A stretch of 64,000 nt of DNA from the NCBI GenBank assembly GCA_963803975.1, contig CAWDOY010000001.1, forward strand, positions 128,001 to 192,000. The letters run 5' to 3'. Source of the DNA: an uncultured delta proteobacterium. Its GTDB lineage: Bacteria; Desulfobacterota; WTBG01; CAIYCZ01. The position numbers were made by a program, and so were the translations under genes. A model generated the notes under the pieces. That model made no database searches. It was not told where the DNA came from and was given only the letters and a program-made list of their open reading frames with translations. Below are positions 1 to 60,138 of the stretch, in pieces. Position 1 is the stretch's first letter. Each line of letters begins with the position of its first letter.

Positions 1-387
1 ATTGGTGTTGAAAGTGTCAAGCTCGTTGTAGAGATGCTTCTTTAAGGTATAGAGGAAGCCTGCGTCAGCGAAGCTTGCACAATGGCTTGCATCTCGCGGT
101 CTTCATCAGCGTAGCGCTCATAGATTATGAGCGAGCACAGAGGCTGGCGAGCGCATGGCGCAATTTCCTTTATCAGTTTTTTCCCCGACAATGATTACTC
201 TGCCGTATTTGCTCACGCCGTCAATAGCGGTTAATTTTTTAAACTCCTTGAAGTGCTTGTTGTCTTTTGATTCGATAATCATCTTCATGAAGCTTTACAT
301 TTTGTACTTGTATGTGCTTATATAATACACAGGTACTGTATAGGATAGCACACGGTTTCATTGCAATATAAATCTTGGAGAGAAGCG

Positions 388-2560
388 ATGCCGGAAGAGA
401 AAGACTAGTAATCACCACCTGCACCCATGACTGCGGCGGCAGATGCCTGCTTAAGGTGCATGTGAAGGACGGGGTAATTACCAGGATTGAAACTGATGAC
501 GGTGAAGAGCCGCAGCTCAGGGCCTGCGCCCGGGGCCGGGCCTACCGGCAGCGGATTTATTCTCCTGAGCGCCTCAAATATCCCATGAAGCGAACTGGTG
601 AGCGGGGTGAGGGGAAGTTTGAGCGTATCTCCTGGGATGAAGCCCTTGATACGGTGGCGGGCGAATTAAAACGCATTAAAAATACCTACGGCAACCCGGC
701 TATTTTTCATGTGAGCTATTCCGGCAACACCGGCACCATGCTGCACAGTCAACTCGCGGTGGTGCGCCTTCTTACCATGTTCGGCGGGTTCACCCCTACC
801 TGGGGGTCAGCCTCCTTCTGGGGCAATCTGTTTGCATCCCAGATGACCTACGGCACGCTCACCACCGGCAACTACCCGTGATGACCTACCCAACGCGCGC
901 CTCATCATTATGTGGGGCTGGAACCCGGCAGAATCAATCCAGATTACAACCACCAGCTATTACATGACCCTGGCCAAAGAGGCCGGGGTAAAAGTTGTTG
1001 CGGTTGACCCGCGCTTTACCGACTCTGCCGCAGCGTATGCATCGCAGTGGATACCGATCAGGCCGGGAACCGATACGGCCATGCTTATAGCCATGGCTTA
1101 TGTGATGATAAAGGAAAACCTGCAGGATCAGAAGTTTCTTGATACCTATACCATCGGGTTTGAGCAGTTCCGGGAATATGTCATGGGCATTGCTGACGGA
1201 ATACTAAAGACACCTGCCTGGGCGGAGGATATCACCGGAGTGTCGGCAGCTACCATCGAGCAGCTTGCCCGGGAATATGCCACGACAAAACCGGCAAAGC
1301 TTCTGACGCTTGGCGCTCCGGGACGCACCGCGTTCGGCGAACAGTTTCACCGCGCGGCAGCCACCCTTGCGGCAATGACCGGCAACATCGGCATCTATGG
1401 CGGTGAATCTGCCGGCTTCGGCCTTGCGCCGGTCGGCCTCCAGCCGCTTGCTTCGGCAGCGCTGCTGCACGGGGGCAAGCCCGGCAATCTGCCGGAAGGG
1501 ACCTCCCCTAAAAAAGGAGTGCACATCACCAAGGTGTGGGATGCCATCCTCAAAGGCACGCAAGGGGGTTATCCCGCTGATTTCAAGATGGTCTATACCA
1601 CCAACGGCAATCCCGTGAACCAGTTCATGAATTCAAATAAAGCCGTTCAAGCGCTGAAGAGCCTTGAGTTTGTGGTGGTGCATGAGCAGTTCATGACCGC
1701 GACCGCCCGCTATGCTGATATACTGCTGCCGGTCAATACCTTCTTTGAGCGAAATGATATTGTGCGGCCATGGCACGCTGCCCCGTATTATATTTATGCA
1801 AACAAGGTAATTGATTCGCTCCACGAGTCAAAATCAGATTTTGATATATGCACGGAACTGGCCCCGCGATTGGGTATCGAAGGATACAGTGACAAGACCG
1901 AGGACGAGTGGCTGCGGCTTGCCTGGCAGTCGGCTGAGCACTTCACCCTCACAAAACCGCTTGCGGGCTATGATGAGCTGAAGCAGAAGGGGGTGCATAA
2001 GATTCCCCTTAAACAGCCTGCTGTTGCTTTCAAGGAGCAGGTGGAGGATGTCAAGAACCATCCGTTCCCCACGCCTTCAGGGAAAATCGAGATCTACTCG
2101 CAGCGCCTGGCAGACATGAACAACCCGAAGCTTACCCCCATGCCCACCTATATTGAGCCCTGGGAAGGGACGCGTGACGCGCTTGCGCAGAAGTATCCGC
2201 TGCAGCTTATTTCAACACACTACAAGAGACGCATTCACTCCCAGATGGATAATATCCCGTGGATGAGAGAGCTTGAGCCGCAGACCGTCTGGATAAGCTC
2301 TGCTGACGCGCAACAGCGCAGCATTCAGCACGGCGATATGGTGAAAATATTTCAATGACCGGGGCACGGTGGTGCTTCCGGCAAAGGTGACGGAGCGGAT
2401 TATGCCCGGCGTGGTGAGCATTGATCAGGGCGCATGGTTTAAGCCGGATAAGGAGGGTGTTGACCGGGGCGGCTGCGTTAATGTGCTGCTGAAAGACGAG
2501 CATTCACCGGCAGGCGCGTTCTGCAGCAACACCGGTTTGGTGCAGATACAGAAAAGTTAA
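388..2560 (+). CDS. dmsA: Molybdopterin oxidoreductase catalytic subunit, DmsA/DMSO-reductase family; no Tat signal; frameshifted near 405, 880 and 2355
   Basis: Joined ORFs 375-881, 910-2358 and 2369-2560: CTHDCGGRC [4Fe-4S] motif, [65 protein letters not shown]-terminal DRGGCVN. GGAG precedes ATG 388. Confidence 0.85.
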
Positions 2561-11151: not shown

Positions 11152-12498
11152 ATGAAAGAACGATATGATGTGGTAGTGGTCGGCGCCGGTCCGTCAGGGC
11201 TTCTGGCAGCAAAGGCAGTGGCAGAGAACGGCTTTGATGTGGCAGTGGTTGAGCGCAAGGAAAAGATAGAAGTTATCGGCAGAACCTGCGGCCAGACGCT
11301 GTTGCCCCCCAATGATTATTTTTTCGGCGACCTGTTTCACTATAATGCGCGGGATAAAAGATTCTGCTTTCCCAAAAGCGGCCTCAGCTTTCCCTACAGC
11401 GGCCCGATTAAAAATCTTTATGACTGGTATATGTATTCCCCGGGGATGAAGCGGATGCACTTCGGCTACCCGGAAGGATATACTCCGCCCATACCGGGGA
11501 TGCTCAAGGCGCCCATCGCCCTCACCTATGACAAGGAAGTGCTGACCGCGGACCTGCTGAAGGAAGCACGCAGCGCACGCGCAGAGATATTTGAGAATTG
11601 TGAGTTCACCGATATCACCTGGGCCGGCCCCGAGACCATCGTAATTGCCGGGGGCAAACAGTTTCGCTGCACCTATGTGATTGCCGCCGACGGCACCAAC
11701 TCGCGGGTAGTGCAGAAGCTCGGGTTCAACAATGAGCGGCGGCACATCACCAATCTTTTCGTCAAATCGTTTTTCGTCAGCGGGTTTAAGTCGCCGGTTG
11801 CCGGAGAGCCCATTGTTACGGGTGTCAACATTTTTCAGGGCAAGCCGGTATATCTGTTCGCGGTGCCGCGGCCGGAAGGCGGGGACTGGAACCTGCTCTT
11901 CCTGACGCTTGAGCAGGGGATTGATATTGGCGCTGCGGCAGAACAGATCATGAAAGATTCTCCCTTTGCCCAGTACTGCAAGGGCGCGAAAATCGAGCGT
12001 GAACTGGCCGCCATGGAAGTGATTCAGTCGCCCATTGTGAAGCCGTTCAAGAACAACGTGGTCATTGTCGGCGACGCCGGCTCCTGCCAGGAGCTTGAAT
12101 GCCTGGGCGCGATGATCACCGGGTGGAAGGGCGGCCTTGCCGTGGCCGCTGCCCTGAAAGAGTTTCAGCTTGGCATTGCTCCCCGGGCTATTGCCGACTA
12201 CTGTGACTGGTGGCTCAATACCTACATCAAGCAGTATGACTACCAGGACTACCTGCAGGTGTTCGGCATTGCCTACATGTTCCCGAAGCCTGAGATTATA
12301 GATTATATATTCAGTCTGTTGAACCAGACCTTCCCGCCGACCTTTAACCCGTACACCGCGGTTAAGCATCTCGGCCTTGCCATGCAGATGGCCTTCCCGA
12401 AAATAATGGCTGAGCGGCCGGACATACTGCAGGAGCTGGTGCCGAACATGCTGGCATTTCCGTCCGATGTGCTGGCTAAGACGTTGAAGGACAAATAG
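11152..12498 (+). CDS. FAD-dependent oxidoreductase, geranylgeranyl-reductase-like family
   Basis: YDVVVVGAGPSG, VIAADGTNS, VVIVGDAG; AGGAGG RBS. Confidence 0.75.
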   Translation: MKERYDVVVVGAGPSGLLAAKAVAENGFDVAVVERKEKIEVIGRTCGQTLLPPNDYFFGDLFHYNARDKRFCFPKSGLSFPYSGPIKNLYDWYMYSPGMKRMHFGYPEGYTPPIPGMLKAPIALTYDKEVLTADLLKEARSARAEIFENCEFTDITWAGPETIVIAGGKQFRCTYVIAADGTNSRVVQKLGFNNERRHITNLFVKSFFVSGFKSPVAGEPIVTGVNIFQGKPVYLFAVPRPEGGDWNLLFLTLEQGIDIGAAAEQIMKDSPFAQYCKGAKIERELAAMEVIQSPIVKPFKNNVVIVGDAGSCQELECLGAMITGWKGGLAVAAALKEFQLGIAPRAIADYCDWWLNTYIKQYDYQDYLQVFGIAYMFPKPEIIDYIFSLLNQTFPPTFNPYTAVKHLGLAMQMAFPKIMAERPDILQELVPNMLAFPSDVLAKTLKDK

Positions 12499-12718
12499 CA
12501 GTTTATTGGGGACGCAGATTTTCGCTGATACCGAGCAGATTTATAGAATAGGCCACAGAAGTTTCACAGTTAAGAGGCACAGAATTTTCAGGAAAATATT
12601 GATTCTGTGCTTTTCTGTGTTTTCAGTGGCTAACCTGAAAAGGGCAGAGGTTATCACTGGCTTCTGCCCTTACTTTTTTCTTGAGCCTAACTATCGGATA
12701 TGGTATCACTAATTAGCA

Positions 12719-14050
12719 GTGAGCACACTCACGAAAAGGAAGGATATTCAAGGGCGTATGGTCTGGCCTGAGGTTGGAATCTATGTAGGCGAAGGCGCAT
12801 CACATTCATGGACCTGGTTTGCTGACATCTTTGACCGGAGAGGCATCTACAGCGTCAGATTCTTTGATGAAGCTGCAATAGCAGATGGGGCTTTGGACGC
12901 TATAGACGTGCTTTTTATTTCCGGCGGTGACACGTTTGCCATTGCCGAGGGACTCGGCAGCACGGGGGCTGCACAGCTTGAGGCATTCATTCTCCAGGGC
13001 GGGGTTTACATCGGCTCATGCGCAGGTGCGTATCTGCCGCTCAAGTCATCGCTCTATCCGCTCAATCAGTTCAACCTGGTGACCTCGCGGATAACCAACC
13101 TGACAAAAAACCTTCCTGCGCCTAAACAGATGGCAGAAAAATTCTGCACTGAGTACGGCTGCCGGTATGTATTTCATCCGGTGCGTGAAGAAGTGAGGGT
13201 GAAAATAGCTGGCGGCTTTTCCTGTGCCGGGAAGGAAATGCGCGTGCCGCTCTATGGCGGGCCGGCCATGACCGCATCAGATGATATTGAAGTACTGGCA
13301 TACTATACCGGATTCACGGATAAGACAGAGTTTCTGGTGGACCGGGAAGTAGCTGAACAAACCCTGATCAGGTAACGTCGCCATTGCCCGGAAACGCCTG
13401 GGGCAGGGGGTCATTTATTTATTAGGACCGCATTTTGAGCATCCCCATTATCCGGCAGCCAACAGCATAATTTTTGAAGCCATGCTCGATGGTTATGCGG
13501 AGCCGCGGCTGCAGCCGGAGCAGTGCTGACATTTGCCTGCGATGAACCAGGAATTGCTAACAAGAATTTGATGCGCGCGTTCAAGAGTGAAATAAGCAAC
13601 GGCCGCATTGTCGCCCTGGCTCTGGAGCGAAAGCCGCTCCAGTGGCTTATTGGCAAAAAGGTTTATGATCCTGAAAAAATACGGGTATTTTTGGAAGCGG
13701 TGTGGTCACGGATTTCCGTGATTGACCGGGTGGAATGTATGGCTGAGGAAGAAGGGTATTACCTGCTGCACACCGCTCAAAGCGTGACCACCATGCTGAA
13801 GACATTGAAAAATGAATCCGACGCCGGACATGCGGTGACGGTTGCTGCAGAAGAACTGTTTGCTAAGCTTAAAGCATTAGCAGCGGCATTTTTAACGCTC
13901 TATTTCAGATTGAAAGAGTTCGGGAGTTCAGGAGTTGAGGGGTTCAGGAGTGCTCAGAAGCATCAAAACTGCGCAGCAGAACTCCACACTCCTCAACTCT
14001 CACAACTCATTAACCAGAGGAGGCTACATGAAACACTATCTCTACTTTGA
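12719..14050 (+). CDS. BPL-N / class I glutamine amidotransferase-like protein (frameshifted near 13370-13520)
   Basis: IYVGEGA, LFISGGD, GGVYIGSCAGAY nucleophile elbow; GPHFEHP read in the shifted frame at ~13426-13446. Confidence 0.65.
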
Positions 14051-14835
14051 AGCAACAGCGCTGCTCTACATTTTAACGATTCGTCACCTTTATATTTTTC
14101 TTTGCCGGGGTATTTGTGACCATTTCCCTCTGGCGGCGCGGCAAGGCAAAGAGCCTGTATCACAGCGTCAGCACGCCGGCCATCATCAAAGCGTTTATTG
14201 TCAATGTGGTACTGCAGCTGCAGATCATTAAATTCAGCTTCATCCGCTGGGTTATGCACTTCTGCATATTTATCGGGTTCATGGGCCTGCTGGCCCTGAC
14301 AGCATGGGAAGCGTTTCTTGCCGATATCCTGCCGGCAAGTTCCGCCCTGGTGAGAGTATTTTTTAACAACGGCGGCAGGCTGATCCTGGATGTATGGGGT
14401 GAGGTGTTTGGCACGATGCTCCTCGCGGGGCTCATCATTGCGCTCCTGCGGCGCTATGTTTTCAGGGTCGCCCAGCTTGATACCATCCTGAAAGACACGG
14501 TTTCCATAGTTCTGCTGCTCATAATCAGCGTGAGCGGGTTCATCGCCGAGGCATTCAGGCTCATGGCGATACCGGGATCACCTGATCTTATCTACTCGTT
14601 TGTTGGTCTTCTGTTTGCAAAAGTTTTTGCAGCAGCAGGCATCCCGATGCTTAATTATAAACTGTTTGTCTGGCTGCACGGCCTGGCAGCCATGCTGTTC
14701 ATTGCGCTCATTCCGTTCAGCAAAATGTGGCACGCGTTTGCGAGCCCCATTGAAATTATTCTTGATGCATCCGAGAAGCAGGGGAAACATGAAGAAGAAG
14801 TTGCTGCCGCCCACTATTCAGTGTCCCGCAGCTGA
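14028..14835 (+). CDS. NarI/HdrE-like b-type cytochrome membrane anchor (frameshift near 14080)
   Basis: GAGGAGG + ATG 14028; RWVMHFCIFIGF, WLHGL, IPFSKMWH haem-ligating His pattern; 5-6 TM segments. Confidence 0.75.
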
Positions 14836-14918
14836 TGAAAAAATATTTGTACCACTGAGAGCACAGAGAATTGTGTGCTCTGTGGTTTGTTATTGGCCAG
14901 AGATAAAGGAGTCTACCC

Positions 14919-16251
14919 ATGGAGAACGAGGTAAAAATAGATCAGGAAACACCAGTACGGGAAGTTAAAGTTGAAAACCTGAGTATGCGCCAGCTGCTGG
15001 AGCTTGATGCCTGCACCCGCTGCGGTGAGTGCTCAAACTGGTGCCCGGCCTATGAGCAGGACAAGCGGGAGCCCATCAACCCCCGCGGCAGGGCCTATGA
15101 TTTCAGGAGGCTCATCAGACGGCAGTACGGTTTATTCAGGCCGGACGGCTTTCTGGGAAAGTTATTCGGTAAGAAGCCCATCAGCTGAAGCAGAGATAAA
15201 GAGGATGGCCGCTGACCTGTATGAGTGCAGCACCTGCCGGCAATGCCATTTTGTGTGCCCGGCGAGCATTGATACGGTTGAGCTCTGGGAAGCCATCAGG
15301 CGCTCGTTTGTGGAGGCAGGATACGGGCCGCTGGATTCTCAGAAAGATCTGGTCACCAGCGTAAAATCTTATGATAACCCGTGGCGACAGCCGCGCAGCT
15401 CCCGCGCCCGCTGGACGAGGGTGGCAAAAAAGAAAAAGAGAATTAAGGAAGAGCCGAAAGATCTTGGCAAAAACAAGGCAGAGGTGATCTACTTTGTGGG
15501 CTGCACCGGCTCCTATGATGTGAATGTTGAAGAAGTGGCAATAAATACGGTAAACATTTTAGAGCACTCACAGACTGATTTCGGCATCCTCGGCAACAAG
15601 GAGAAGTGCTGCGGCAGCGTGCTGCTGCGCATGGGCGACCGGGAATCATTTGAAACCATAGCCCAGGAGAACATAAAACAGTTTAATGAACTGGGCATCA
15701 AGACGCTGGTGACCTCCTGTTCCGGCTGTTTCAAAACCATTAAGGAAGACTATGCAAAAGTGGGCGGGATGAATTTTGATATCAAGCACACTGCAGAGTA
15801 CCTGGTTGAGCTGATTAAATCAGGCAAGCTCGAGCTCAAGCATGAAGTGAAGATGAAGGTCACCTACCACGACCCGTGTCATCTGGGCCGGCACAGCGGT
15901 GTGTATGATGCTCCCCGGGAACTGCTGCGGAGCATCCCGGGCATTGAGTTTGTGGAGATGGAGCGCTCCCGCGAATTTTCCCGCTGCTGCGGGGCCGGCG
16001 GCGGGCTCAAGGCAGGGTATCCCGATATCCAGAACAAGATTTCCCAGCAGCGCATCAGTGACGCGATAGCAACCGGAGCAACCGAGCTGGTCTCTGCCTG
16101 CCCGTTCTGCTATCAGGGGCTGCAGGTGGGAATCCAGGCCATGAATGCGCCGATCACCATGCGCGATATCACCGAGCTGGTCTACAGGTCTCTTACCGGA
16201 AAAACCGAGCAAGAGAGACCCGCAGCCGAGGGAGAGGCTGAGGCAGAATAG
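14919..16251 (+). CDS. HdrD/GlpC-like Fe-S oxidoreductase (4Fe-4S dicluster plus two CCG domains; frameshift near 15185)
   Basis: CTRCGECSNWCP, CSTCRQCHFVCP, YFVGC, EKCCG, YHDPCHLGR, RCCGAGGG, ACPFC. Confidence 0.85.
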
Positions 16252-16356
16252 TGATTCATAGCGGGGACTAGAGGAAACCGGAATACTCTTTTTTCGTGAG
16301 TTCTTGATTGATATGTGGACAGAGAAGACCCCTATAGTAACATCATTTTGAATGGT

Positions 16357-17334
16357 ATGTTTAGCAGCAAAAGACAATCTTCCCCACCGTATCGTCACTG
16401 CTTTTTATTAATACTGCTTTGCCTGGTATTACTGTGCACTACCGCATGCTCTCCGTCAAAAAGCGAGGGCATGAAAATCCGCCTTGGCTATCTCCAGAGT
16501 GATCTGCACCATCTGCCTGCTTTTGTTGCCATAGAAAAAGGATATTTTCAGCAGGAAGGATTAGCTGTTGAAGTGATCGGCGCGTTCAGGGCCGGCCCCG
16601 AACTTATGAGCGCTTTTTCCGCACAAGCACTTGATGTCGGGTATGTCGGCCTGGCGCCGGCTATCACGGCAAAGGCCAATAGCACTGCACATATTAAATG
16701 CATTGCCCTGGTAAACACGGAAGGCTCTGCCATCGTAGCAGGGAAAGAGTCGTCCGGTAAGAGCGTGGCTGATTTAAAGGGGAAGGTGGTAACTATTCCC
16801 GGACATGCAACGATGCAGGATTTTCTGCTCAGAAGAGCGCTCAAACAACAGGGAATCGCTGTTAATGAAATTAAATTGCTGGTCCTCAAACCCCCCGAGA
16901 TGATTCCTGCCCTCAGCAGAAAAGATATTGATGCCTTTATTGCATGGGAGCCGTATCCGTCAAAAGCGGTCACTGAGAACGCAGGCAGGATCTTAATGAC
17001 GTCGCATCAGATCTGGGCGCAGCATCCCTGCTGTGTTATTGTTGCGGATGAAGAGTTTTGCGGAAAGCACCCGGAGATGGTGCAAAAGCTGAAAAGCGTT
17101 CACCGACGAGCCGTTGAATTTATAAATGCCAACAGGCCGGAAGCCATAGCTATTGGTGTTAACTATACCGGCATGGATGGTAAAACAGTAGCCGCGGCTC
17201 TGGGCAACATCACCTATGGTGGCGTGCTTGAGCGGCAGTATGTGGCTGAATATGTTGATTTTTTAAGGGAGTTACGTTATATAAGGCCAGACATAGCAAA
17301 GGATTTTTTAATGAGTATCTTGCCTGAACAGTAG
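16357..17334 (+). CDS. ABC transporter substrate-binding lipoprotein, SsuA/TauA/NMT1 family
   Basis: Lipobox CTTAC; IRLGYL..HHLPAFVAIEKGYF, AWEPY, HPCCV. Confidence 0.8.
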   Translation: MFSSKRQSSPPYRHCFLLILLCLVLLCTTACSPSKSEGMKIRLGYLQSDLHHLPAFVAIEKGYFQQEGLAVEVIGAFRAGPELMSAFSAQALDVGYVGLAPAITAKANSTAHIKCIALVNTEGSAIVAGKESSGKSVADLKGKVVTIPGHATMQDFLLRRALKQQGIAVNEIKLLVLKPPEMIPALSRKDIDAFIAWEPYPSKAVTENAGRILMTSHQIWAQHPCCVIVADEEFCGKHPEMVQKLKSVHRRAVEFINANRPEAIAIGVNYTGMDGKTVAAALGNITYGGVLERQYVAEYVDFLRELRYIRPDIAKDFLMSILPEQ

Positions 17335-17396
17335 TTTTCCCTCTACGCTGCTCATTAAAAACAAGAGTTACGGGGAATAATACAGCAGCTGCGCGC

Positions 17397-18165
17397 ATGA
17401 ATTATCTTAAAAAGAACAGTAAACTCCTTTTTCCCCTTCTGCTGCTTGTTTTATGGCAGATATTTTCCTCATCCGGGTTATTTCCCTCCGCAGATACTTC
17501 CCTCACCGCTCCAGATTGTGACCGGTATCAAAGAGCTTGTGTTTGCCGGGCTTCCGCCGGGCAACAGCCTGTTGCTCCATTGTTTTGAAAGTCTTCTGCG
17601 TGTTTCAGCGGGCTTTGCTCTAGCGCTTATTATGGGAGTGCCGCTGGGCATTATGGTCGGAAGGTTTAAGCTGCTGAGAAACATGCTGACCCCGGTTATA
17701 GAAACCATTCGCCCGATTCCACCCCTTGCCTGGATCCCGCTCGCCATTCTGTGGTTTGGCATCGGCTTTAAATCAGCGCTGTTTATTATCTTTTTGGGAT
17801 GCTTTTTCCCGATACTGCTGAGCACCATTTCAGGTGTGCTCTCAGTAGACACGATACTCATTGATGCAGCAAAGACCCTGGGAGCAACAGAGAAGAAAAT
17901 ATTCCTTCAGATATTGATCCCTGCTGCCACTCCTTCAATTTTTACCGGCATCCGCATCGGGGTTGGTATTGGCTGGATGACCCTGGTTGCCGCGGAATTT
18001 ACCGGCGTGAAGAGCGGCTATGGCCTGGGATATATGATTATGGTGGCGCGTGATATTCAGCGGCCTGATCTGGTTATCGGCGGTATGGCGGCCATCGGAT
18101 TGATGGGCTATCTGCTTGATGCAGGGCTGCGCATGCTGGAAGCGCGGACGCTGAAATGGAGATAA
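17397..18165 (+). CDS. ABC transporter permease, SsuC/TauC family (frameshift near 17490)
   Basis: RPIPPLAWIPLAILWFGIG, DAAKTLGA (EAA loop), WMTLVAAE..GLGY. Confidence 0.85.
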
Positions 18166-18252
18166 AGAATCAGCTGACAGCGTTCAGCAATCAGCTGTCA
18201 GGGACATGTTTGCTGAAAGCTGACGGCTGATAGCTACAGTGCTTAAAAAACT

Positions 18253-19017
18253 ATGACCTTAGAGCTGAAAAATCTCTGTAAAACATATACTGACGAATCG
18301 GGCGAAAATACGGTTGCAGCGCTCAGTAATATTACCCTTACCGTGAGGGCAGGGGAGTTCCTCTCTGTTATCGGGCCCAGCGGATGCGGCAAGACCACCA
18401 TGCTGCGGATTATCGCAGGCCTGGAGCAGCCTACTGCGGGTGAAGTATTCATTAATGGTGAGCAGCTGGCAGAGCCCTGGAGCAGGGTCGGCTTTGTTTT
18501 CCAGGAGTATGCGCTGTTTCCGTGGCGCACCGTAAGCGAGAATGTGGAGTTCGGTCTTGAGCTTAAAAATATACCGAAGCAGGAGCGACGGCGCATGGCG
18601 CTTGAATATATTAATCAATTTGGCATGGGGGGCTTCGAAAATAAGTATCCCAAGGAGCTTTCCGGAGGCATGAAACAGCGCGTAGCCATAGCGCGCACGC
18701 TCATTACCAATCCCTCCATTATCCTCATGGATGAGCCGTTCGGGTCCCTTGATTCACAGACCCGCAATGCGCTTCAGGAATTCCTGCGGGACGTGTGGCA
18801 AACATCGCAAAAGACCATTATCTTTATTACGCACAATATCGACGAGGCGGTATTTTTAAGCCACCGGGTAATCGGATTCTCGCGGCGGCCCGGGACTATC
18901 AAGTTTTCCCTCGACATTGATATACCTGCGCCACGCGACCGGACCGGCTCAGAGTTCAACCAATGCCGGAAACAGATTCTTGGTTTTCTGCAGCAGGAGA
19001 GCATGGCAGATAAATAA
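18253..19017 (+). CDS. ABC transporter ATP-binding protein, SsuB/TauB family
   Basis: GPSGCGKTT, FQEYALFPW, LSGGMKQRVAIAR, MDEPFG. Confidence 0.9.
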   Translation: MTLELKNLCKTYTDESGENTVAALSNITLTVRAGEFLSVIGPSGCGKTTMLRIIAGLEQPTAGEVFINGEQLAEPWSRVGFVFQEYALFPWRTVSENVEFGLELKNIPKQERRRMALEYINQFGMGGFENKYPKELSGGMKQRVAIARTLITNPSIILMDEPFGSLDSQTRNALQEFLRDVWQTSQKTIIFITHNIDEAVFLSHRVIGFSRRPGTIKFSLDIDIPAPRDRTGSEFNQCRKQILGFLQQESMADK

Positions 19018-19078
19018 ACAGACTGCAGCGATTAGCGGTCAGTTTTCAGCTTTGAATAATTTATGGAAATAATATTTC

Positions 19079-19756
19079 ATGGAAGAATTATTTTCTAAAG
19101 CTCTTGCAAAAATTGAGGAGAAATTCACGCTCACCCCTGTTGAGCTTCCGCATGATTTGAAAGAAACCCGCTTTCCCCTGGGGCTTCTGGAAATGCAGTG
19201 CTTCAACTGGAAGGCCGGGGGAATTCGAAAAATATATGCCATGCGGCTGAAGATCAAGGTGCCCTCACTTGATATCCTGGGAATGGCAATCTATCCGGAG
19301 CCTGATGTTGATGTTCCCATATTTTGTTTTGATCTCTCCTGTGCCAGGAAAAAAATCGTGACGTATATAAATGCTATCCCGCTGTTGCAGGATGAAGCAT
19401 TTACAAAAAAGTATCTTGACCCTTTCAAGCCGGCCCATGATGCATACCGCAGTTTCCCGCCGCACAAGAAGCCTGAATGGATGCTTCGCTATACATCGCC
19501 CTATACTATTTACTCAATGCCTGAGCTTGAACGGGCACGGGACATCAAGGCTTGTGTGCTTGATTATTTAGCAGTGTACCTGGATATCATTGCCGGTGCG
19601 CCCAGGATAGACAATCCCCAATACCGGATGCGCATTGAGCAGGAACAAAAAAACTACATAAACGAATTGCTGACAAAAGATAATTCGCAGAAAATGCTGG
19701 CAAAACTGCTGGGAAAGGAAAAGACCGGCAGGATCTTTCACGAAGTGCTGGTATAA
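19079..19756 (+). CDS. Ferredoxin-dependent bilin reductase family homologue (PcyA/PebA/PebB/RCCR-like)
   Basis: IYPEPDVDVPIFCFDL resembles FDBR 'FP-P-YDLP-FG-D'; PEW..YTSPY; YL-VY helix; C-terminal KDNSQKMLAKLLGKEKTGRIFHEVL resembles 'D P---L---FG-EW--R-----LF'; size 225 aa fits. Confidence 0.7.
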   Translation: MEELFSKALAKIEEKFTLTPVELPHDLKETRFPLGLLEMQCFNWKAGGIRKIYAMRLKIKVPSLDILGMAIYPEPDVDVPIFCFDLSCARKKIVTYINAIPLLQDEAFTKKYLDPFKPAHDAYRSFPPHKKPEWMLRYTSPYTIYSMPELERARDIKACVLDYLAVYLDIIAGAPRIDNPQYRMRIEQEQKNYINELLTKDNSQKMLAKLLGKEKTGRIFHEVLV

Positions 19757-19763
19757 TGTGCAT

Positions 19764-20832
19764 ATGGACATAAGAACAATACAGGTTGAACTGCAGAGCC
19801 TTGGACTCAGGGTTCCGGACAGCTGCCCCGGCAGAAAAGGCGGGGCAGGGCCTGCTGAAGGCCAGGTGATCATCCTGGCCGGCCGCGCCATCAGCGTCCC
19901 CACGCAGAGCGCCTATGTCGCCGCATCACCCTATGCATTACAGCAGCGGGGCAGCTCTTTCATGCTGTTTAAAGAGACCCGTGAAATAGGGGAGGTCATA
20001 CTGCCCGCACGGCCGCGCTATTATGACCTGCAAACAGCTAACGGGGTTACCTTTGACACGGATTGCCCTGACCCATGGCATAGAGTGCCTGGCATCAACC
20101 GTGTACCAGGACTGTGTCTACTGGAAGACTGCGGACGGCTGCACTTTCTGCGGCATCGGGCTTTCTCTTGCCGGCAACAGCACGGTTCTTGAAAAAGAGC
20201 CGGAAGATATCGGCCTGGTTGCAGAAAACGCCGCGCGTCTTGACGGCGTCACTCACGTGACCCTTACTACCGGCATGCGGGTAAGTGAAAAGACGGTCAT
20301 TCATCATCTCTCCGGCTGTGTAAGGGCGATTAAACAAAGAACCAGTCTGCCGGTGCATGTTCAGATATGCCCTCCCGGGGACCTTAAAGACCTTGAAGCC
20401 CTCAAGCAGGCAGGCGTTGATACCATCGGTATCCATATTGAGACGTTTGATGCTGCGGCGCTCAAGCGGGTGGCTCCGGCAAAAGCTGCGTGTGGACTTG
20501 AGCCGTATATAAAAACATGGAAACATGCTGTTACGGTGTTTGAGAAAAACCAGGTCAGCAGTTTTCTTATAGCAGGGCTTGGCGAAGAGCCTTCAAGCAT
20601 TCTCGCGGGCGCAGAGCTGCTCTGTAAGCTGGGAGTGTTTCCGTATCTTCTGCCGCTGCGTCCCATCCCGGGAACAGCGCTGGCAGAAACAAGACCACCA
20701 GCTCCTGAGACAATGCAATACCTGTATGAGCAGGTAGGGGCTATGCTCCAGAACTACGGGCTGTCTTCAAAGGCATGCACGGCAGGTTGTGTGAGGTGCG
20801 GGGCATGTTCGGCGCTTGCGCTGTTTGAGTAG
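19764..20832 (+). CDS. Radical SAM protein, MSMEG_0568/Sll0785 (NitD) family (frameshift near 20055)
   Basis: RKGGAGP N-terminus; LASTVYQDCVYW....CTFCGI atypical Cys motif; GIHIETFD; NQVSSFLIAGLGE; C-terminal AGCVRCGACS. Confidence 0.85.
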
Positions 20833-21010
20833 CTAAGTCCTCGATTCATAAATTCGGTGACGAATTTACTCACTCAGGACTTAGTGCTGAGTCAGCATTG
20901 TAAAGCTTTTATTTGGATCACATACGTCACTGTATTTGCGAATCGAAGCACTAAGGGGTTGGGGTTTGGGGGTTCGGGATTAGTGGTTCACGGGACTAAG
21001 CGGCTTTTAT

Positions 21011-21457
21011 ATGATGCTTGAAATAGAATGCAGGCCGGTTCAGAATAACGACGAACTGCGCGAGAGCTTTGCTCTCCGCAAAAAAGTTTTTGTTGAAGAG
21101 CAGCAGCTGTTCAGACGGACTGACCGTGACCGGCATGATAAGCAGGCCATTCATATTGTTGCCCTGTGCCATAATAATGTTGTCGGCACGGTGCGGGTGC
21201 ATCACCAGAAAGCCGGCATCTGGTTTGGCAGCAGGCTGGCAGTGTTACAACAGTTCCGCGGCAGGGCAGGGAAATTGCTCATACAGAAAGCGGTGCACGT
21301 GGTAAAAGAGAAAGGGGCACAGCAGTTTCGTGCGCATATTCTGCTGAGAAATGTTCCTTTATTTAAGAGGCTCGGGTGGGTGACGGCAGGGCATGTTTTT
21401 ACCTACCGCGGCCAGCCTCACCAGATGATGGAAGCTAATCTTGACCACAAACAGTGA
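21011..21457 (+). CDS. GNAT N-acetyltransferase, MSMEG_0567/Sll0786 family
   Basis: LRKKVFVEEQQLFRRTDRDRHD, GTVRVH, WFGSRLAV, NVPLFKRLGW, PHQMMEA. Confidence 0.85.
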   Translation: MMLEIECRPVQNNDELRESFALRKKVFVEEQQLFRRTDRDRHDKQAIHIVALCHNNVVGTVRVHHQKAGIWFGSRLAVLQQFRGRAGKLLIQKAVHVVKEKGAQQFRAHILLRNVPLFKRLGWVTAGHVFTYRGQPHQMMEANLDHKQ

Positions 21458-21567
21458 ACGGTCGTCAATGAATAGTCAGGTTACAATCTTGAATATGTAG
21501 CTGCTGAGGGTTATTGTAACTATTCACCATTCACTATTCACTAATACGGCAGGCGAGGACTCTTGTG

Positions 21568-22563
21568 ATGCTAAGAGACATAATTAATGAAATCAGAACC
21601 TATCCCGGCTTAACCCGAAAGCGGAACATATACCGGATCACCAATATGCTCGCCCCGGTTGCAGATTATGGCGCAACGATTGCTGATTTTGGGGAGGATG
21701 CGGCAGCCATTTACCATAAGGGTGAGTTTCTCCTGCTTGCTGCCGACGGCATCTGGAAAGGCCTCATCGAGGCAAATCCCTATGCAGCAGGTAAAGCTTC
21801 GGTCATGGCCAGCGTGAATGATATTTATGCCATGGGCGGCCGTCCGCTGGCGATGGTGAATGTCATTGGTATTTCAGAGCCGCGATACTATGAAGAAATA
21901 ATGCGGGGCATTCAAAAGGGGTGCGAAAAATTCCGCGTTCCCATGGTCGGCGGGCATCTCCATCCGGATTCGAGCGAGGTCTCTCTGTCGGTGTCGATAC
22001 TGGGTGTGGCAAAAAAGCTTCTCCTGAGCACGAATGCCCGTGACGGCCAGGATATTGTCTTTGCCGTTGACCTTGAGGGCCGGGGCTATCAGTGCAAGCC
22101 GGTCATAAGCTGGGATACCAATTCAGGGAAAAATTCACAGCAGGTGCTGGAGCGGCTTGAAGTGCTTCCCTGCATTGCAGAAGCAGAGCTGTGTCAGACG
22201 GCAAAGGATGTGAGCAACGGCGGGCTATTGGGCACTATTGCTCTGATGCTTGAAGTATCGGGGAAGGGGGCGCTTATTACTATGGACAGCATTCCAAAAC
22301 CTGATTTATTTTCCATGACTGACTGGCTGAAAGCATTCTTAAGCTATGGTTTTGTGCTCAGTGTTGATAAGGAAAAAACCGGGTCTGTCATAGCGCGCTT
22401 TCGGGAGAAAAATATAGCTGCCAATGTTATTGGCGAGATTACGCTGGATAAGCGCATGGTTCTTTCATATCAGGGTGAACAGGATCTGCTGTTTGACTTT
22501 GAGAGAGAGGCAATTACCGGCATCACCACAGGCCTTGATGTCCCGGGATTCAGCTTTGGATAA
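21568..22563 (+). CDS. AIR synthase-related (PurM-like) protein, Sll0787 / methanogenesis marker 2-like
   Basis: FGEDAAAI, LLLAADGIW, VNDIYAMGGRP, VPMVGGHLHPD, AKDVSNGGLLGT. Confidence 0.8.
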   Translation: MLRDIINEIRTYPGLTRKRNIYRITNMLAPVADYGATIADFGEDAAAIYHKGEFLLLAADGIWKGLIEANPYAAGKASVMASVNDIYAMGGRPLAMVNVIGISEPRYYEEIMRGIQKGCEKFRVPMVGGHLHPDSSEVSLSVSILGVAKKLLLSTNARDGQDIVFAVDLEGRGYQCKPVISWDTNSGKNSQQVLERLEVLPCIAEAELCQTAKDVSNGGLLGTIALMLEVSGKGALITMDSIPKPDLFSMTDWLKAFLSYGFVLSVDKEKTGSVIARFREKNIAANVIGEITLDKRMVLSYQGEQDLLFDFEREAITGITTGLDVPGFSFG

Positions 22564-45502: not shown

Positions 45503-46526
45503 TCAGTACGGCCGTATGGTCTGCAGTATCTCCTGCACCAGCATGTCGGAGGTTATCTGCTGGGAAAGGGCACTGCTGTTGAGCAGGATGCGGTGCCTGA
45601 GGACGTGAACTGCACAGGTGGCCACATCATCAAAGGTGACAAAATCCCGCTGCCGACAGAAGGCATAGGCCTTTGCCAGCGCCAGCAGCGACTCTGTCGC
45701 ACGCGGCGAGGCCCCGAGCCGGATATACTGGTGCACCTCGCTGGCTGCAGCCTGCTCTTTATAGGTTTCATTCGGCCGGGTGGCAATGCAGATATTTAAA
45801 ATGTAGTTCATGACCTTCCGGCCCACCCGCACCCGGTCATGGATGAGCTGCTGGATGGCAATAATATCCTCAAGGCTGAAAACCTTCTGCACCGCTGCTT
45901 TCAGCTGGTCGAAATTGGAATTTTTTCTCTGCATGCAGCTCAAACTCCTCATCCTTGTGCGGATACCCGACATCATATTTTACCATGAACCGGTCAACCT
46001 GGGATTCCGCCAGGGGATAGGTGCCGATCTGCTCAATCGGGTTCTGGGTCGCCAGCACCATGAAGGGATTGGGTATCGCATAGCTCAGGCATTCGATGGT
46101 TACTTCCTTTTCCTGCATCGCCTGCAGCAGCGCGGACTGAACCTTCGGCGATGCGCGGTTTATTTCGTCGGCGAGAAAAATGTTGCAGAAAACGGGGCCG
46201 AAGTAAAAATCAAATTTCCTGTCCTTCTCATTCCACACCATGGTGCCGGTTATGTCGCTGGGCATCTTGTCCGGGGTGAACTGGAAGCGTTTGAAATTGC
46301 CGCTGATCACTTTTGCAAAGGTTTCAACAACAAGGCTCTTTGCCAGGCCCGGGACCCCCTCCAGCAGTATATGGCCCTTTGCCAGAAGCGCATACAGTAT
46401 GAGGTTGATCATCTCCTCCTGGCCGATCACAACTTTTGCGATCTCAGCTTTTACCTGCTGGATCTGTTGTGCATACCGGGTGAACTGCTCTTTCGTGCCG
46501 TCACCCGCTGTCACCTGATTCTGCAT
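45503..46526 (-). CDS. moxR: MoxR-family AAA+ ATPase, MxaR-like (frameshift near 45915)
   Basis: HILLEGVPGLAKS, RFQFTPD, LADEINRA, ATQNPIEQIGTYPL.E.Q.DRF, GASPRA, VLRHRI. Confidence 0.92.
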
Positions 46527-47610: not shown

Positions 47611-48643
47611 ACAAAACTCCGGCAAGCAGATCGGCGCTTAAGAGCATGAACTGGGAATCAACCCGCAGATACACCCCGGGAACATAATACACTTTTCCCT
47701 GTTTATGGCCTGCGCAAAGGAGAGAACCTTATTGGACATCAGCAGCTCTCTCAGCTTGCTTCCCCGGGGAACGATAATAACATCGGGGTTCCATTTAAGC
47801 AGTGTTTCATTATCAATCTGCGACCAGGATTTAATGCCCTGCTCAGCCCCGACATTAACGGCGCCGATGATGCTGCAGATGGAATTAAAGTTTGATGACC
47901 GGCCCGGGATATACCCGCCTTCATCGTAATAGAGCACACGAACCGGCTTGTTGCCACCGGGGATGTCTGACTTCAGTGCCGCGATTTTTGCATCGATTAG
48001 ATTAACCAGTGCCTGCGCATTGGCTCTCTTCACCGACAATTTTTCCGATGAGCAGGATCTGCTCTTTAATGGACTCAATTGATACCAAAATAGCCGAGGT
48101 CAAAACAGGGGATCTTCGCCTGTCTGAGCTTTTCTTTAAAATCAGCGCCGGAATAAAAAACGGTAAAGACCAGGTCCGGCTGAAAGCCGATAACCAGCTC
48201 TGTCTGTTTTGATTTAAAAATCGGGCCCCGCTGCCGTACTTCATCTGCAATAAAGCTGAATTCAGGATCAGCGGAAAATTCATTGAAGGCTACCAGCCGC
48301 TCACGCGGGCAGATTGCCCATAATATCTCTGCAACGCCCACCGCGTGGGGAATTATGCGCACGGGCTGCTTCGCCAGGGTGAACGCTTTTTCTTCCTGCG
48401 GAAGGCATCAGTCTTAAAATCATACACCTTGAAGGTATAGGGTATGGTGCGCGGCCAGCTGTTGGTTTGCGCTTCACCCCTGACCAGGCTCAGCGCTTTT
48501 TTTAAATCATTCATGGGCAGGGGAGGGGAACCGTCCGGACTGCGCGCTGCCCCGCCGCGGGAGAGCAGCAGGCAGCAGAGACAGCAGGCCAGGTTACTGA
48601 GAAGCTTCGCGCACGCTGCAGACCACCGACGACTGTTATGCAT
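47594..48643 (-). CDS. BtuF/FecB-family cobalamin/iron substrate-binding protein (about 3 frameshifts)
   Basis: Joined ORFs 48353-48670, 48075-48362 and 47638-48078: RII....AEILWAI, E.VIGFQPDLV, ETLLKWNPDVII. Confidence 0.7.
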
Positions 48644-56037: not shown

Positions 56038-56433
56038 ATGATTACAAAGCTGCTGACCGGCGCTATTATCATATGCCTTTTTTTCAGCTGCTGCCGTTTT
56101 ACCAGACCCGCTAAAATCAACACAGGCCCGGAGTTCATAACCTTTGAAGCTGACCTCGGGCCTGTTCTTTTTTACCACCGCAAACACCAGCGCTCTCTGA
56201 AACAGAACTGCGTCCAGTGCCACCATAAGGGCAGCGAAAAGACCCCTGCCTGCCGGAGCTGCCATAAAAAGAAGCAAGATACTGCTGAAGAAGACCCGAT
56301 CTGCTTTTTTGACGTCACGATGAACCTGTGCCGCGGGTGTCATCAGCGGGAGCGCGACCAGGAGACCTCAAAAAAAGCCCCCATCCACTGCAACGAGTGC
56401 CACGACACGAAAAAAATAAAGTGGTCAAAGTAA
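56038..56433 (+). CDS. Tetrahaem cytochrome c3-family protein
   Basis: GPVLFYHRKH; four CxxCH motifs (CVQCH, CRSCH, CRGCH, CNECH); N-terminal export signal. Confidence 0.85.
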   Translation: MITKLLTGAIIICLFFSCCRFTRPAKINTGPEFITFEADLGPVLFYHRKHQRSLKQNCVQCHHKGSEKTPACRSCHKKKQDTAEEDPICFFDVTMNLCRGCHQRERDQETSKKAPIHCNECHDTKKIKWSK

Positions 56434-59764: not shown

Positions 59765-59914
59765 CGTATGCGATAGTCTGTACAAACCAACGCAAAAGTT
59801 CCGACCCTGAACTCTCTCGCCTGGTGCCTTTTCTTCCTTCGGGTCACGGGTCACGTGCCACGAGTCGCGTATTTCAATATCTATTGACACCGTCAAACTA
59901 ATGGAGTATTAATT

Positions 59915-60085: not shown

Positions 60086-60138
60086 ATAGCAGTCGCGGAA
60101 CTCGATCCTTGCATAAAAGGGTGAAGTAAACTGGGTGC

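What the first reader, a model, noticed from the sequence alone, without database searches (positions are those of the whole stretch)
19079..19756. Ferredoxin-dependent bilin reductase homologue in a non-phototrophic anaerobe, with no haem oxygenase nearby
Seen: FDBR-like motifs including the Asp in PIFCFDL (position of the catalytic Asp of PcyA/PebA-type enzymes) and the C-terminal KD..ML.K.LG.E...R...EVL helix pair. The gene sits between an ABC transporter and a radical SAM gene with only 7 bp to the next start. Known: FDBRs/RCCR reduce linear tetrapyrroles normally made by O2-dependent ring opening, and usually sit with haem oxygenase or bilin-binding proteins; none is in this window. Inference: a new FDBR-fold activity, on an imported tetrapyrrole catabolite or a non-bilin substrate.
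Basis: partly seen in the sequence, partly recalled or inferred. Interest (0 to 1): 0.75.

Follow-up and report, generated by a model that had tools for sequence, protein, structure and literature searches.

The report
Unstudied bilin-reductase lineage beside radical-SAM genes
The gene is a real relative of the enzymes that make light-harvesting bile pigments, from a separate unstudied bacterial branch that sits next to radical-SAM genes instead of a haem oxygenase, so what it acts on is unknown.

Summary
ORF 19079-19756 (+, 225 aa) matches Pfam Fe_bilin_red over its full length (E 2e-29, 103 bits against a cut-off of 31). It folds with pLDDT 96.6 onto solved FDBRs: PebB TM 0.91, PebA 0.89, HY2 0.89. 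Asp85 aligns with PcyA Asp105. Asp201 aligns with PcyA Asp220, the column of PebS Asp206 and HY2 Asp256.

It is not a PcyA, PebA or PebB orthologue; all NCBIfam scores are far below cut-off. It belongs to a separate lineage that forms one side of a branch (29 of 29 rows, SH-aLRT 100), with its own signature: Tyr53, Gly68, Asn98, Cys159.

A 7-bp gap separates it from an MSMEG_0568-family radical SAM gene, followed by a GNAT and an AIR-synthase-like gene. This is the core trio of the Nit1C cluster, without the nitrilase. No haem oxygenase or ChuW-like gene lies in the 64 kb. The same order occurs in one related MAG, which is close kin and so not independent evidence.

FDBR homologues in non-phototrophs are already published (pre-PcyA), and uncharacterised clades have been noted. 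Only this lineage's context is new. A new activity is possible but not shown. The neighbouring ABC importer is of a small-solute type, which argues against tetrapyrrole import.

The parts
19079..19756 (+). FDBR-family protein, 225 aa, of a distinct uncharacterised lineage. Asp85 is equivalent to PcyA Asp105; Asp201 is equivalent to PcyA Asp220 / PebS Asp206 / HY2 Asp256. PcyA His88 and Glu76 are replaced by Gly68 and Met55.
   Evidence: Pfam PF05996 E 2e-29; below all NCBIfam FDBR cut-offs; model pLDDT 96.6; Foldseek TM 0.91 to GtPEBB; residue mapping; dN/dS 0.13.
19764..20832 (+). Radical SAM gene of the MSMEG_0568 family. In this window a frameshift near 20040-20065 splits it into two ORFs (19758/19764-20192 and 20023-20832).
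   Evidence: TIGR04043 matches model positions 2-96 and 90-354 on the two ORFs. The DNA alignment shows one extra base relative to L001. The L001 orthologue is intact at 356 aa and scores 372.5 bits against a cut-off of 303.7.
21011..21457 (+). GNAT N-acetyltransferase of the MSMEG_0567/Sll0786 family.
   Evidence: TIGR04045 136 bits against a cut-off of 68.45; the same gene follows the rSAM in L001.
21565..22563 (+). AIR-synthase-like (PurM superfamily) protein, intermediate between the sll0787 family and methanogenesis marker 2.
   Evidence: TIGR03267 329.7 bits (cut-off 365) and TIGR04049 296.8 bits (cut-off 321.3), both just below cut-off; Pfam AIRS and AIRS_C.
16315..19017 (+). ABC importer directly upstream: SsuA/NMT1-type binding protein (16315-17334), permease (17446-18165) and ATPase (18253-19017). 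That it is co-transcribed with the FDBR-like gene is inferred from the shared strand and the 61-bp gap only.
   Evidence: TIGR01728 197.4 bits against 163.5; Pfam NMT1_2, BPD_transp_1 and ABC_tran. Same order in L001. No convincing terminator-like site between them.
14116..16251 (+). NarI/QmoC-like membrane protein (14116-14835) and HdrD/DsrK-like CCG iron-sulfur protein (14919-16251, also split by a frameshift near 15180). A possible electron-input module; its link to the FDBR-like gene is inferred only.
   Evidence: Pfam Nitrate_red_gam and CCG; NCBIfam QmoC, TfrB, TmcB and DsrK matches, all below cut-off. L001 has a single 443-aa ORF.

Best explanation

Shown: it has the FDBR sequence profile and the alpha/beta/alpha fold. 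It keeps the acidic residue on the central sheet (Asp85, equivalent to PcyA Asp105). It also keeps the acidic residue on the C-terminal helix (Asp201, equivalent to PcyA Asp220 / PebS Asp206 / HY2 Asp256). It is under purifying selection.

Inferred: it binds an open-chain tetrapyrrole, or a closely similar conjugated substrate, in the pocket between the sheet and the C-terminal helices. It takes single electrons from a ferredoxin-type donor and protonates the substrate through Asp201 and Asp85. The most likely reaction is a two-electron A-ring-type reduction like that of PebB, HY2 and pre-PcyA. Two things point that way: these are its nearest solved relatives, and Asp201 is the only acid kept in all 96 family sequences.

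Inferred with less confidence: it is co-transcribed with the rSAM-GNAT-AIRS-like trio that follows after 7 bp and works in the same pathway. In that cluster it occupies the slot that a nitrilase holds in the Nit1C cluster. The source of its substrate is not identified. It could be a haem oxygenase elsewhere in the genome, an oxygen-independent route, or uptake.
For: - Profile and fold: Pfam Fe_bilin_red E 2e-29 over the full length. A profile of the family finds GtPEBB at E 1.6e-25, PebA at 2.6e-18 and PcyA at about 1e-16 among PDB sequences. The model has pLDDT 96.6. TM-scores are 0.91 to GtPEBB, 0.89 to PebA, 0.89 to tomato HY2, 0.80-0.82 to PcyA and 0.81 to RCCR.
- Residue equivalence was read from the HMMER alignments and from the tree alignment. 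The roles of these residues come from Table 2 and the text of section 2.2 of PMC13446030.
- Conservation: Asp201 is present in 96 of 96 family sequences. Asp85 (or Glu) is present in 30 of 96, always together with a small residue at position 68: Gly in 28, Ala in 1, Ser in 1.
- Separate lineage: the 29 family rows form one side of a branch, SH-aLRT 100, branch length 1.01, in a 69-row tree. In the 75-row tree support was 94.
- Selection: dN/dS 0.13 against L001.
- Linkage: a 7-bp gap to the rSAM gene in both the window and L001, with the same gene order ABC-FDBR-rSAM-GNAT-AIRS in both.
Against: - No activity was measured and no ligand was modelled.
- His88 and Glu76 of PcyA are absent (Gly68, Met55). 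The Asp found at the position of Asn98 in nearly all other FDBRs in my alignment is Asn in 94 of 96 family members, so the pocket chemistry differs from characterised enzymes.
- The linkage to the rSAM trio rests on two loci that are close relatives (83% identity, with synteny over roughly 20 kb), which amounts to one independent observation.
- Two thirds of the family (66 of 96) lack Asp85, so the family's conserved chemistry may not be that of PcyA or PebS.
- The contexts of the other family members could not be fetched.
Confidence: 0.5

Rival explanations
1. The FDBR fold has been recruited to a non-tetrapyrrole substrate. The protein would act as the reductase of the small-molecule pathway encoded by the rSAM-GNAT-AIRS-like trio and fed by the NitT/TauT-type importer, functionally replacing the nitrilase of Nit1C.
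For: Its position immediately upstream of the rSAM gene is the slot the nitrilase holds in Nit1C; the order hyp1, nitrilase, rSAM, GNAT, AIRS comes from passages of PMC1199592. The gap is 7 bp in both loci. The rSAM's weaker matches are to small-molecule enzymes: LipS2, HmdB, BioB, ThiH. The importer is of a small-solute type. The family-specific residues Asn98, Cys159 and Tyr53 replace residues typical of other FDBRs. No haem oxygenase is in the window.
Against: Every characterised member of the fold family that Foldseek listed (FDBRs, RCCR, HemF) acts on tetrapyrroles. The two acidic residues used for bilin protonation are retained. The Nit1C trio has no known product (PMC1199592 and PMC11049912, passages), so nothing links it positively to any particular substrate. 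Linkage is seen in only one independent lineage.
Confidence: 0.25
2. A non-catalytic tetrapyrrole-binding protein (carrier, chaperone or sensor for a linear or cyclic tetrapyrrole) that has kept the fold but not reductase activity.
For: 66 of 96 family members lack the central-sheet acid. Pre-1 POZ53557 showed little activity in co-expression assays, and Pre-3 variants bound cyclic tetrapyrroles (PMC13446030, abstract and section 2.2). HemF shares the fold.
Against: The window's own subgroup keeps Asp85 in 29 of 30 members, with Glu in the remaining one, and Asp201 is invariant in 96 of 96. That pattern is expected for catalysis rather than mere binding.
Confidence: 0.1
3. An ordinary PcyA, PebA or PebB orthologue, for example acquired from a cyanobacterium or a phage, that lies next to unrelated genes by accident.
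For: JGI annotation pipelines named some relatives phytochromobilin or dihydrobiliverdin reductase. The feature-based Atlas neighbours are cyanobacterial and viral FDBR clusters.
Against: NCBIfam equivalog scores are 66.6/327 (PebB), 66.1/263 (PebA) and 44.7/206 (PcyA), far below cut-off. Identity to cyanobacterial PebB is about 24-27%. The family is separated from the labelled PcyA, PebA and PebB/HY2 rows by a branch with SH-aLRT 100. The window's GC profile is even around the gene.
Confidence: 0.03

Closest known systems
PebB / HY2 (A-ring bilin reductases; GtPEBB 6qwq/6qx6, tomato HY2 6kmd)
   Same: These are the best sequence and structure matches: E 1.6e-25, TM 0.91 and 0.89. Both acidic residues are present at equivalent columns.
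   Different: Identity is 19-23%. The PebB equivalog score is 66.6 against a cut-off of 327. The Arg and Asn typical of PebA/PebB at positions 53 and 68 are Tyr and Gly here, and the Asp at position 98 is Asn. The host is non-photosynthetic, and no haem oxygenase, PebA or phycobiliprotein genes are nearby.
[quoted passage not shown]
   Same: FDBR-family proteins of about 225-240 aa in non-photosynthetic bacteria. The Asp/Asp pair is present as in pre-2 CAP_1520 (Table 2 of PMC13446030).
   Different: The contexts differ. Pre-1 and pre-3 sit with HO, an Fe-S protein, V4R proteins and a globin/BBAG; pre-2 sits with a B12-binding protein and a globin (PMC10151467, passages). Here the neighbours are rSAM, GNAT, an AIRS-like protein and an ABC importer. 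The pre-1 signature (Asn/Glu/Ser) is not met. Rows carrying Glu at the Asp105-equivalent column (P0090, with the full Asn/Glu/Ser signature, plus P0074 and P0120) fall in another clade. No verified pre-PcyA sequence could be placed in my tree, so the relationship is not settled.
The two uncharacterised FDBR clades of uncertain placement, and the query 'Unknown D6734_12105', in Frascogna et al. 2026 (PMC13193486)
   Same: Bacterial FDBR homologues outside the three named lineages, with no characterised member. My family likewise has unresolved placement among PcyA, PebA and PebB/HY2 (an open fork).
   Different: Identity with those clades could not be checked. That paper's text, as far as I searched it, does not mention radical SAM (0 occurrences).
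Nit1C / MSMEG_0565-0572 / sll0783-0787 cluster
   Same: rSAM (TIGR04043), GNAT (TIGR04045) and an AIRS-like gene in the same order and on the same strand (order from PMC1199592).
   Different: No nitrilase, no hypothetical proteins 1 and 2, and no flavoprotein. An FDBR-like gene precedes the rSAM. The AIRS-like protein scores higher against methanogenesis marker 2 than against sll0787, and is below both cut-offs.

Membership tests
FDBR family (Pfam PF05996 Fe_bilin_red) | Profile match above the curated gathering score over most of the domain | tested here: met
   103.3 bits against 31, profile positions 3-226 of 228.
FDBR family (Pfam PF05996 Fe_bilin_red) | Alpha/beta/alpha sandwich fold shared with solved FDBRs | tested here: met
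   Model pLDDT 96.6, pTM 0.92; TM 0.91, 0.89 and 0.89 to PebB, PebA and HY2.
FDBR family (Pfam PF05996 Fe_bilin_red) | Acidic residue on the central sheet equivalent to PcyA Asp105 / PebS Asp105 | tested here: met
   Asp85. Asp or Glu is present in 30 of 96 family sequences and absent in 66 of 96.
FDBR family (Pfam PF05996 Fe_bilin_red) | Acidic residue on the C-terminal helix equivalent to PebS Asp206 / HY2 Asp256 / PcyA Asp220 | tested here: met
   Asp201, present in 96 of 96.
FDBR family (Pfam PF05996 Fe_bilin_red) | Ferredoxin-dependent reduction of a bilin | not testable with these tools
   Needs an anaerobic enzyme assay.
PcyA (NF002760) | Equivalog score above cut-off; the His88 and Glu76 catalytic residues | tested here: not met
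   44.7 bits against 206; Gly68 and Met55 at those columns.
PebA / PebB (NF009720, NF009723 and related models) | Equivalog score above cut-off | tested here: not met
   66.1 against 263 and 66.6 against 327; separated from the labelled PebA and PebB rows in the tree.
pre-PcyA (pre-1/2/3) | Cluster with HO, Fe-S, V4R and globin/BBAG genes (pre-1, pre-3), or with a B12-binding protein and a globin (pre-2) | tested here: not met
   None of these families was found among 63 window ORFs scanned against Pfam or in the L001 neighbours scanned.
pre-PcyA (pre-1/2/3) | Phylogenetic placement basal to PcyA | tested here: inconclusive
   The family is a separate clade, but its position relative to PcyA is an open fork. 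The tree has no outgroup and no verified pre-PcyA sequence.
RCCR (Pfam PF06405) | Profile match | tested here: not met
   No RCC_reductase hit at E <= 0.01. Structural similarity only, TM 0.76-0.81.
Nit1C cluster | Subfamily-1 nitrilase together with hyp1, rSAM, GNAT, AIRS, hyp2 and a flavoprotein | tested here: not met
   Only rSAM, GNAT and the AIRS-like gene are present. No nitrilase family matched in the Pfam or NCBIfam scans.

The most novel reading that the evidence does not exclude
This FDBR lineage, in anaerobes that lack a nearby haem oxygenase, reduces an open-chain tetrapyrrole that is made without O2, with the translationally coupled radical SAM enzyme and its GNAT and AIRS-like partners producing or tailoring that substrate. 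That would be an oxygen-independent route to bilin-type pigments. It would also be a candidate for the 'archae-FDBR / pre-PebA' stage that the field is looking for (discussion of PMC13446030), and it bears on the question of how bilins could predate atmospheric oxygen.
Probability: 0.1. Interest if true: 0.9.

Novelty: new variant of a known kind. Interest (0 to 1): 0.5.

Why it matters
All characterised FDBRs act on biliverdin-type substrates, which are made by O2-dependent haem oxygenase. The field has an open 'chicken-and-egg' problem about how bilin biosynthesis arose before oxygen (PMC10151467, passages) and explicitly asks for earlier FDBR lineages (PMC13446030, discussion passage).

This gene offers a well-defined FDBR branch of about 100 cluster representatives. 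The subgroup it belongs to retains the catalytic acids, occurs in what look like anaerobes, and sits in an operon-like array with radical SAM chemistry instead of haem oxygenase. That makes it a concrete and cheap target. One protein, one anaerobic assay and a context survey would show whether it is another biliverdin reductase or something different.

It would also give a first functional handle on the rSAM-GNAT-AIRS trio of the Nit1C / MSMEG_0567-0568 clusters, whose product is unknown. If the enzyme simply reduces biliverdin from a distant haem oxygenase, the result is a modest extension of the pre-PcyA story.

Tried and rejected
- Fused forms: a search among proteins of 395-2000 aa found none, from 948 candidates; this is weak evidence.
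Linkage to the rSAM trio is therefore untested beyond one lineage.
- tblastn against plasmids found 4 records, all cyanobacterial PebB at 24-27% identity, which says nothing about context.
- The ESM Atlas search returned generic FDBR clusters and had no structure model.
- The supplement of PMC13193486 holds figure legends and Table S1 but no tree labels, so I could not tell whether this lineage is one of its 'placement uncertain' clades.
- The 'careful' IQ-TREE run did not finish in 300 s. The quick tree (SH-aLRT only) is reported instead.
- Group B (members lacking Asp85) as pre-1: rejected. Pre-1 has Glu and Ser at the two acid positions (PMC13446030, Table 2), whereas group B has Phe/Leu/His and an invariant Asp, and it nests inside this family.
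- A link between sll0785 and haem through Dri1: rejected. The high-throughput two-hybrid hit was not reproduced by the authors (PMC11014987, one passage).
- A riboswitch or other known RNA near the operon: Rfam found only a cobalamin riboswitch 40 kb away.
Full report
**1. The observation**

The stop codon TAA is at 19754-19756 and the next gene's ATG is at 19764, so 7 bp lie between them.

The homology is not a chance resemblance:
- Pfam Fe_bilin_red (PF05996) matches at E 2e-29, 103.3 bits against a gathering score of 31, over profile positions 3-226 of 228. No RCC_reductase match appears at E <= 0.01.
- An AlphaFold2 model built on a 29-sequence family alignment (A2) has mean pLDDT 96.6 and pTM 0.92.
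- Foldseek against the PDB gives GtPEBB 6qx6_B at TM 0.91 (E 5.5e-15), PebA 2x9o at 0.89, tomato HY2 6kmd at 0.89, PcyA 2g18 at 0.80-0.82, RCCR at 0.76-0.81 and HemF at about 0.57-0.60.

The gene is also maintained by selection. Against its orthologue in locus L001 (83% amino-acid identity) dN is 0.094, dS is 0.730 and dN/dS is 0.13.

**2. What kind of FDBR it is**

It is not an orthologue of a named enzyme. NCBIfam equivalog scores are 66.6 against a cut-off of 327 (PebB), 66.1 against 263 (PebA) and 44.7 against 206 (PcyA).

Relatives are few:
- A word-indexed search of 5.8 billion proteins found 17 relatives at 49-100% identity among 170 candidates, all 224-242 aa, and nearly all from metagenomes.
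- An exhaustive phmmer search of 1.84 billion cluster representatives found 112 hits at E <= 1e-3 and only 15 at E <= 1e-30. These 15 are about 225 aa (one 174-aa fragment) and 32-45% identical. Canonical FDBRs appear only from about E 1e-11.
- A profile search with A2 found 82 proteins at E <= 1e-20 among 2246 candidates. The few with organism names are MAGs labelled Proteobacteria bacterium and Chromatiales bacterium, plus the isolate Oceanicoccus sp. KOV_DT_Chl.

For reference labels I scanned 48 of the weaker full-length hits against NCBIfam. Six passed an equivalog cut-off: PebB (P0068, P0113), PebA (P0089, P0128) and PcyA (P0100, P0110).

I then built two trees:
- In a 75-row IQ-TREE quick tree (fragments under 200 aa and two N-terminally truncated hits left out), the 29 family rows plus one long-branch row formed a clade with SH-aLRT 94 for the 29 family rows and 92 once the long-branch row is included.
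- I then dropped the five long-branch rows flagged there (P0121, P0093, P0126, P0063, P0065) and the near-duplicate P0118. In the resulting 69-row tree the 29 family rows are exactly one side of a branch with SH-aLRT 100 and length 1.01.

The family's position relative to PcyA, PebA and PebB/HY2 is an unresolved fork, and there is no outgroup. The 'careful' search did not finish, so no bootstrap values exist.

**3. Active-site comparison**

From the HMMER alignments to Synechocystis PcyA, whose numbering I verified by counting, and from the tree alignment:

| PcyA residue | Residue in this protein |
|---|---|
| Glu76 | Met55 |
| His74 | Tyr53 |
| His88 | Gly68 |
| Asp105 | Asp85 |
| Asp220 | Asp201 |

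Table 2 of PMC13446030 (section 2.2, read whole) places PebS Asp105/Asp206, pre-2 Asp91/Asp207 and HY2 Asp256 in the same two Asp columns. [quoted passage not shown] That PebA's pair is numbered Asp84/Asp205 is my recollection; the alignment is consistent with it after an offset of 8 for the PDB chain.

I aligned 96 family sequences: the query plus the 95 relatives of at least 200 aa that the script selected (P0001-P0035, P0038, P0041, P0130-P0188). Conservation was as follows:

| Position | Residue kept | Count of 96 |
|---|---|---|
| 201 | Asp | 96 |
| 73 and 80 | Pro | 96 each |
| 134 | Trp | 95 |
| 167 | Tyr | 95 |
| 98 | Asn | 94 |
| 51 | Lys | 94 |
| 159 | Cys | 89 |

Position 98 is Asp in nearly all other FDBRs in my alignment.

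Position 85 splits the family:
- Group A, 30 of 96, includes the window's protein. It has Asp (29) or Glu (1) at 85, together with Gly (28), Ala (1) or Ser (1) at 68.
- Group B, 66 of 96, has Phe, Leu or His at 85, together with Asn (59), Thr (6) or Lys (1) at 68.

Group B nests inside the family in both trees (SH-aLRT 97), so it looks derived.

Group B is not pre-1. Pre-1 has Glu and Ser at the two acid columns (Table 2). Rows with Glu at the Asp105-equivalent column (P0090, which carries the full Asn/Glu/Ser signature, plus P0074 and P0120) sit in a different clade.

**4. Surroundings**

All genes from 14116 to 22563 are on the + strand:

| Coordinates | Gene product |
|---|---|
| 14116-14835 | NarI/QmoC-like membrane protein |
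| 14919-16251 | HdrD/DsrK-like CCG iron-sulfur protein |
| 16315-17334 | SsuA/NMT1-type binding protein (TIGR01728, 197.4 bits against 163.5) |
| 17446-18165 | ABC permease |
| 18253-19017 | ABC ATPase |
| 19079-19756 | FDBR-like gene |
| 19764-20832 | MSMEG_0568-family radical SAM |
| 21011-21457 | MSMEG_0567/Sll0786-family GNAT (136 bits against 68.45) |
| 21565-22563 | AIR-synthase-like protein |

The AIR-synthase-like protein scores 329.7 bits against a cut-off of 365 for methanogenesis marker 2, and 296.8 against 321.3 for the sll0787 family.

The only strong terminator-like hairpin on this strand lies upstream at 12640-12671, with a 14-bp stem. The scan is a consensus match only.

rSAM, GNAT and AIRS in this order form the core of the seven-gene Nit1C cluster: hypothetical 1, nitrilase, rSAM, GNAT, AIRS, hypothetical 2, flavoprotein (PMC1199592, passages). 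That cluster's product is still unknown, although it has been linked to cyanide assimilation (PMC11049912, passages). Here the nitrilase and the other four genes are absent, and the FDBR-like gene sits directly before the rSAM gene.

The one related locus I could fetch is L001, on contig CAVPAX010000005.1, a MAG titled 'uncultured beta proteobacterium'. It has the same order from the geranylgeranyl-reductase-like gene through PurM, again with a 7-bp FDBR-rSAM gap. Its rSAM is intact at 356 aa and scores 372.5 bits against a cut-off of 303.7. Because synteny runs over about 20 kb and identity is 83%, this counts as one lineage and is not independent support.

**5. What is absent**

Pfam scans of 63 window ORFs and NCBIfam scans of 32 found no haem oxygenase, no HemN/ChuW-type rSAM, no nitrilase, no phytochrome or GAF protein, no globin/BBAG and no V4R family. 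A haem oxygenase elsewhere in the genome cannot be excluded from 64 kb.

The gene content fits an anaerobic, non-phototrophic bacterium: class III cytochrome c, a DMSO-reductase-family enzyme, HdrD-like and QmoC-like proteins, B12-radical SAM and ethanolamine ammonia-lyase. That is an inference from gene content, not a taxonomic assignment.

**6. Mechanism**

I commit to the following. The protein is a ferredoxin-type-donor-dependent reductase of an open-chain tetrapyrrole or a very similar conjugated substrate. Asp201 and Asp85 act as proton donors. The most likely reaction is a two-electron A-ring-type reduction. Two observations point that way: the nearest solved relatives are the A-ring reductases PebB and HY2, and the universally kept acid is the HY2 Asp256 equivalent.
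- Shown: fold, residue equivalence, conservation, selection.
- Inferred: substrate class, electron donor, regiochemistry.

It is probably co-transcribed with the rSAM trio and works with it, given the 7-bp spacing, but that rests on one lineage.

The upstream importer belongs to the NitT/TauT group. Its characterised substrates are small: nitrate, cyanate, taurine, sulfonates and HMP (my general knowledge, not a call). It therefore does not support tetrapyrrole uptake. The window does hold a FecCD/Peripla_BP_2 importer of the haem/cobalamin type, but it lies 27 kb away, beside B12-related genes.

The main rival is recruitment of the fold to a non-tetrapyrrole step of the trio's unknown small-molecule pathway. 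I give it 0.25.

**7. Comparison with the literature**

FDBR homologues in heterotrophic bacteria are published. [quoted passage not shown] Frascogna et al. 2026 report two further clades with no characterised members and unstable placement, and they list a query 'Unknown D6734_12105' (PMC13193486, passages and the whole supplement text). I could not determine whether my family is one of these.

Three full-text searches found no paper that describes an FDBR next to an MSMEG_0568-type rSAM cluster:
- 'ferredoxin-dependent bilin reductase' / 'heterotrophic' / 'pre-PcyA';
- 'bilin reductase' + 'radical SAM' + 'gene cluster' + 'anaerobic', which returned 2 papers, neither describing this;
- PF05996 / Fe_bilin_red / D6734_12105 / archae-FDBR / pre-PebA.

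The library lacks most subscription journals, so this shows absence from that library only.

**8. Verdict**

The gene is a new variant of a known kind: a distinct FDBR lineage with its own active-site signature and an undescribed gene context.

I score interest at 0.5. It is a concrete, testable candidate for a question the field has posed. However, the general phenomenon is known, the functional novelty is unproven, and the context evidence is thin.

Noticed in passing
window 19758-20832 (break near 20040-20065): The MSMEG_0568-family radical SAM gene is split into two overlapping ORFs in different frames. Alignment to L001 shows one extra base in the window. The L001 orthologue is an intact 356-aa ORF.
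   Followed up: partly
window 375-2358; 12719-14050; 14919-16251; 45503-45976; 47638-48078; 50663-52440: Several other genes appear split or truncated: a DMSO-reductase-family enzyme in two ORFs, a BPL_N-like protein in two ORFs against 388 aa in L001, the HdrD-like protein in two frames against 443 aa in L001, a MoxR-like lid domain alone, a partial Peripla_BP_2, and EutB in two pieces with its tail fused to EutC. The pattern suggests an indel-rich assembly rather than real pseudogenes, so the rSAM frameshift may be an artefact.
   Followed up: partly
window 59907-60096 (+): A cobalamin riboswitch (RF00174, 118.4 bits) lies upstream of CobU (60367-60897) and a B12-binding-type radical SAM ORF (61412-62437). 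A FecCD/Peripla_BP_2/ABC importer and ethanolamine ammonia-lyase genes lie at 46.5-52.4 kb.
   Followed up: no
family alignment (proteins); query residues 68 and 85: Strict covariation within the family. Asp/Glu85 goes with Gly, Ala or Ser at position 68 in 30 of 96 sequences. Phe, Leu or His at 85 goes with Asn, Thr or Lys at 68 in 66 of 96. Asp201 is invariant. The larger Asp85-less group includes an aerobic marine isolate (Oceanicoccus sp. KOV_DT_Chl) and a Chromatiales MAG.
   Followed up: partly
window 21565-22563; L001 12304-13338: The bacterial AIR-synthase-like protein scores higher against the archaeal 'methanogenesis marker 2' model (329.7 and 324.6 bits) than against the sll0787 model (296.8 and 303.2 bits), and is below both cut-offs. 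It may mark an intermediate subfamily.
   Followed up: no
window 11152-16251; L001 2024-7201: A conserved upstream block is shared with L001: a geranylgeranyl-reductase-family flavoprotein, a BPL_N/GATase-like protein, a QmoC/NarI-like membrane protein and an HdrD/DsrK-like protein. Synteny with L001 breaks just upstream of it, with RuvABC in the window and a GlcD-like gene in L001.
   Followed up: partly
window 56038-56433 (+): A class III (tetrahaem c3-type) cytochrome c domain protein, which fits an anaerobic, sulfate-reducer-like lifestyle. The related MAG L001 is nevertheless titled 'uncultured beta proteobacterium' by its submitter.
   Followed up: no
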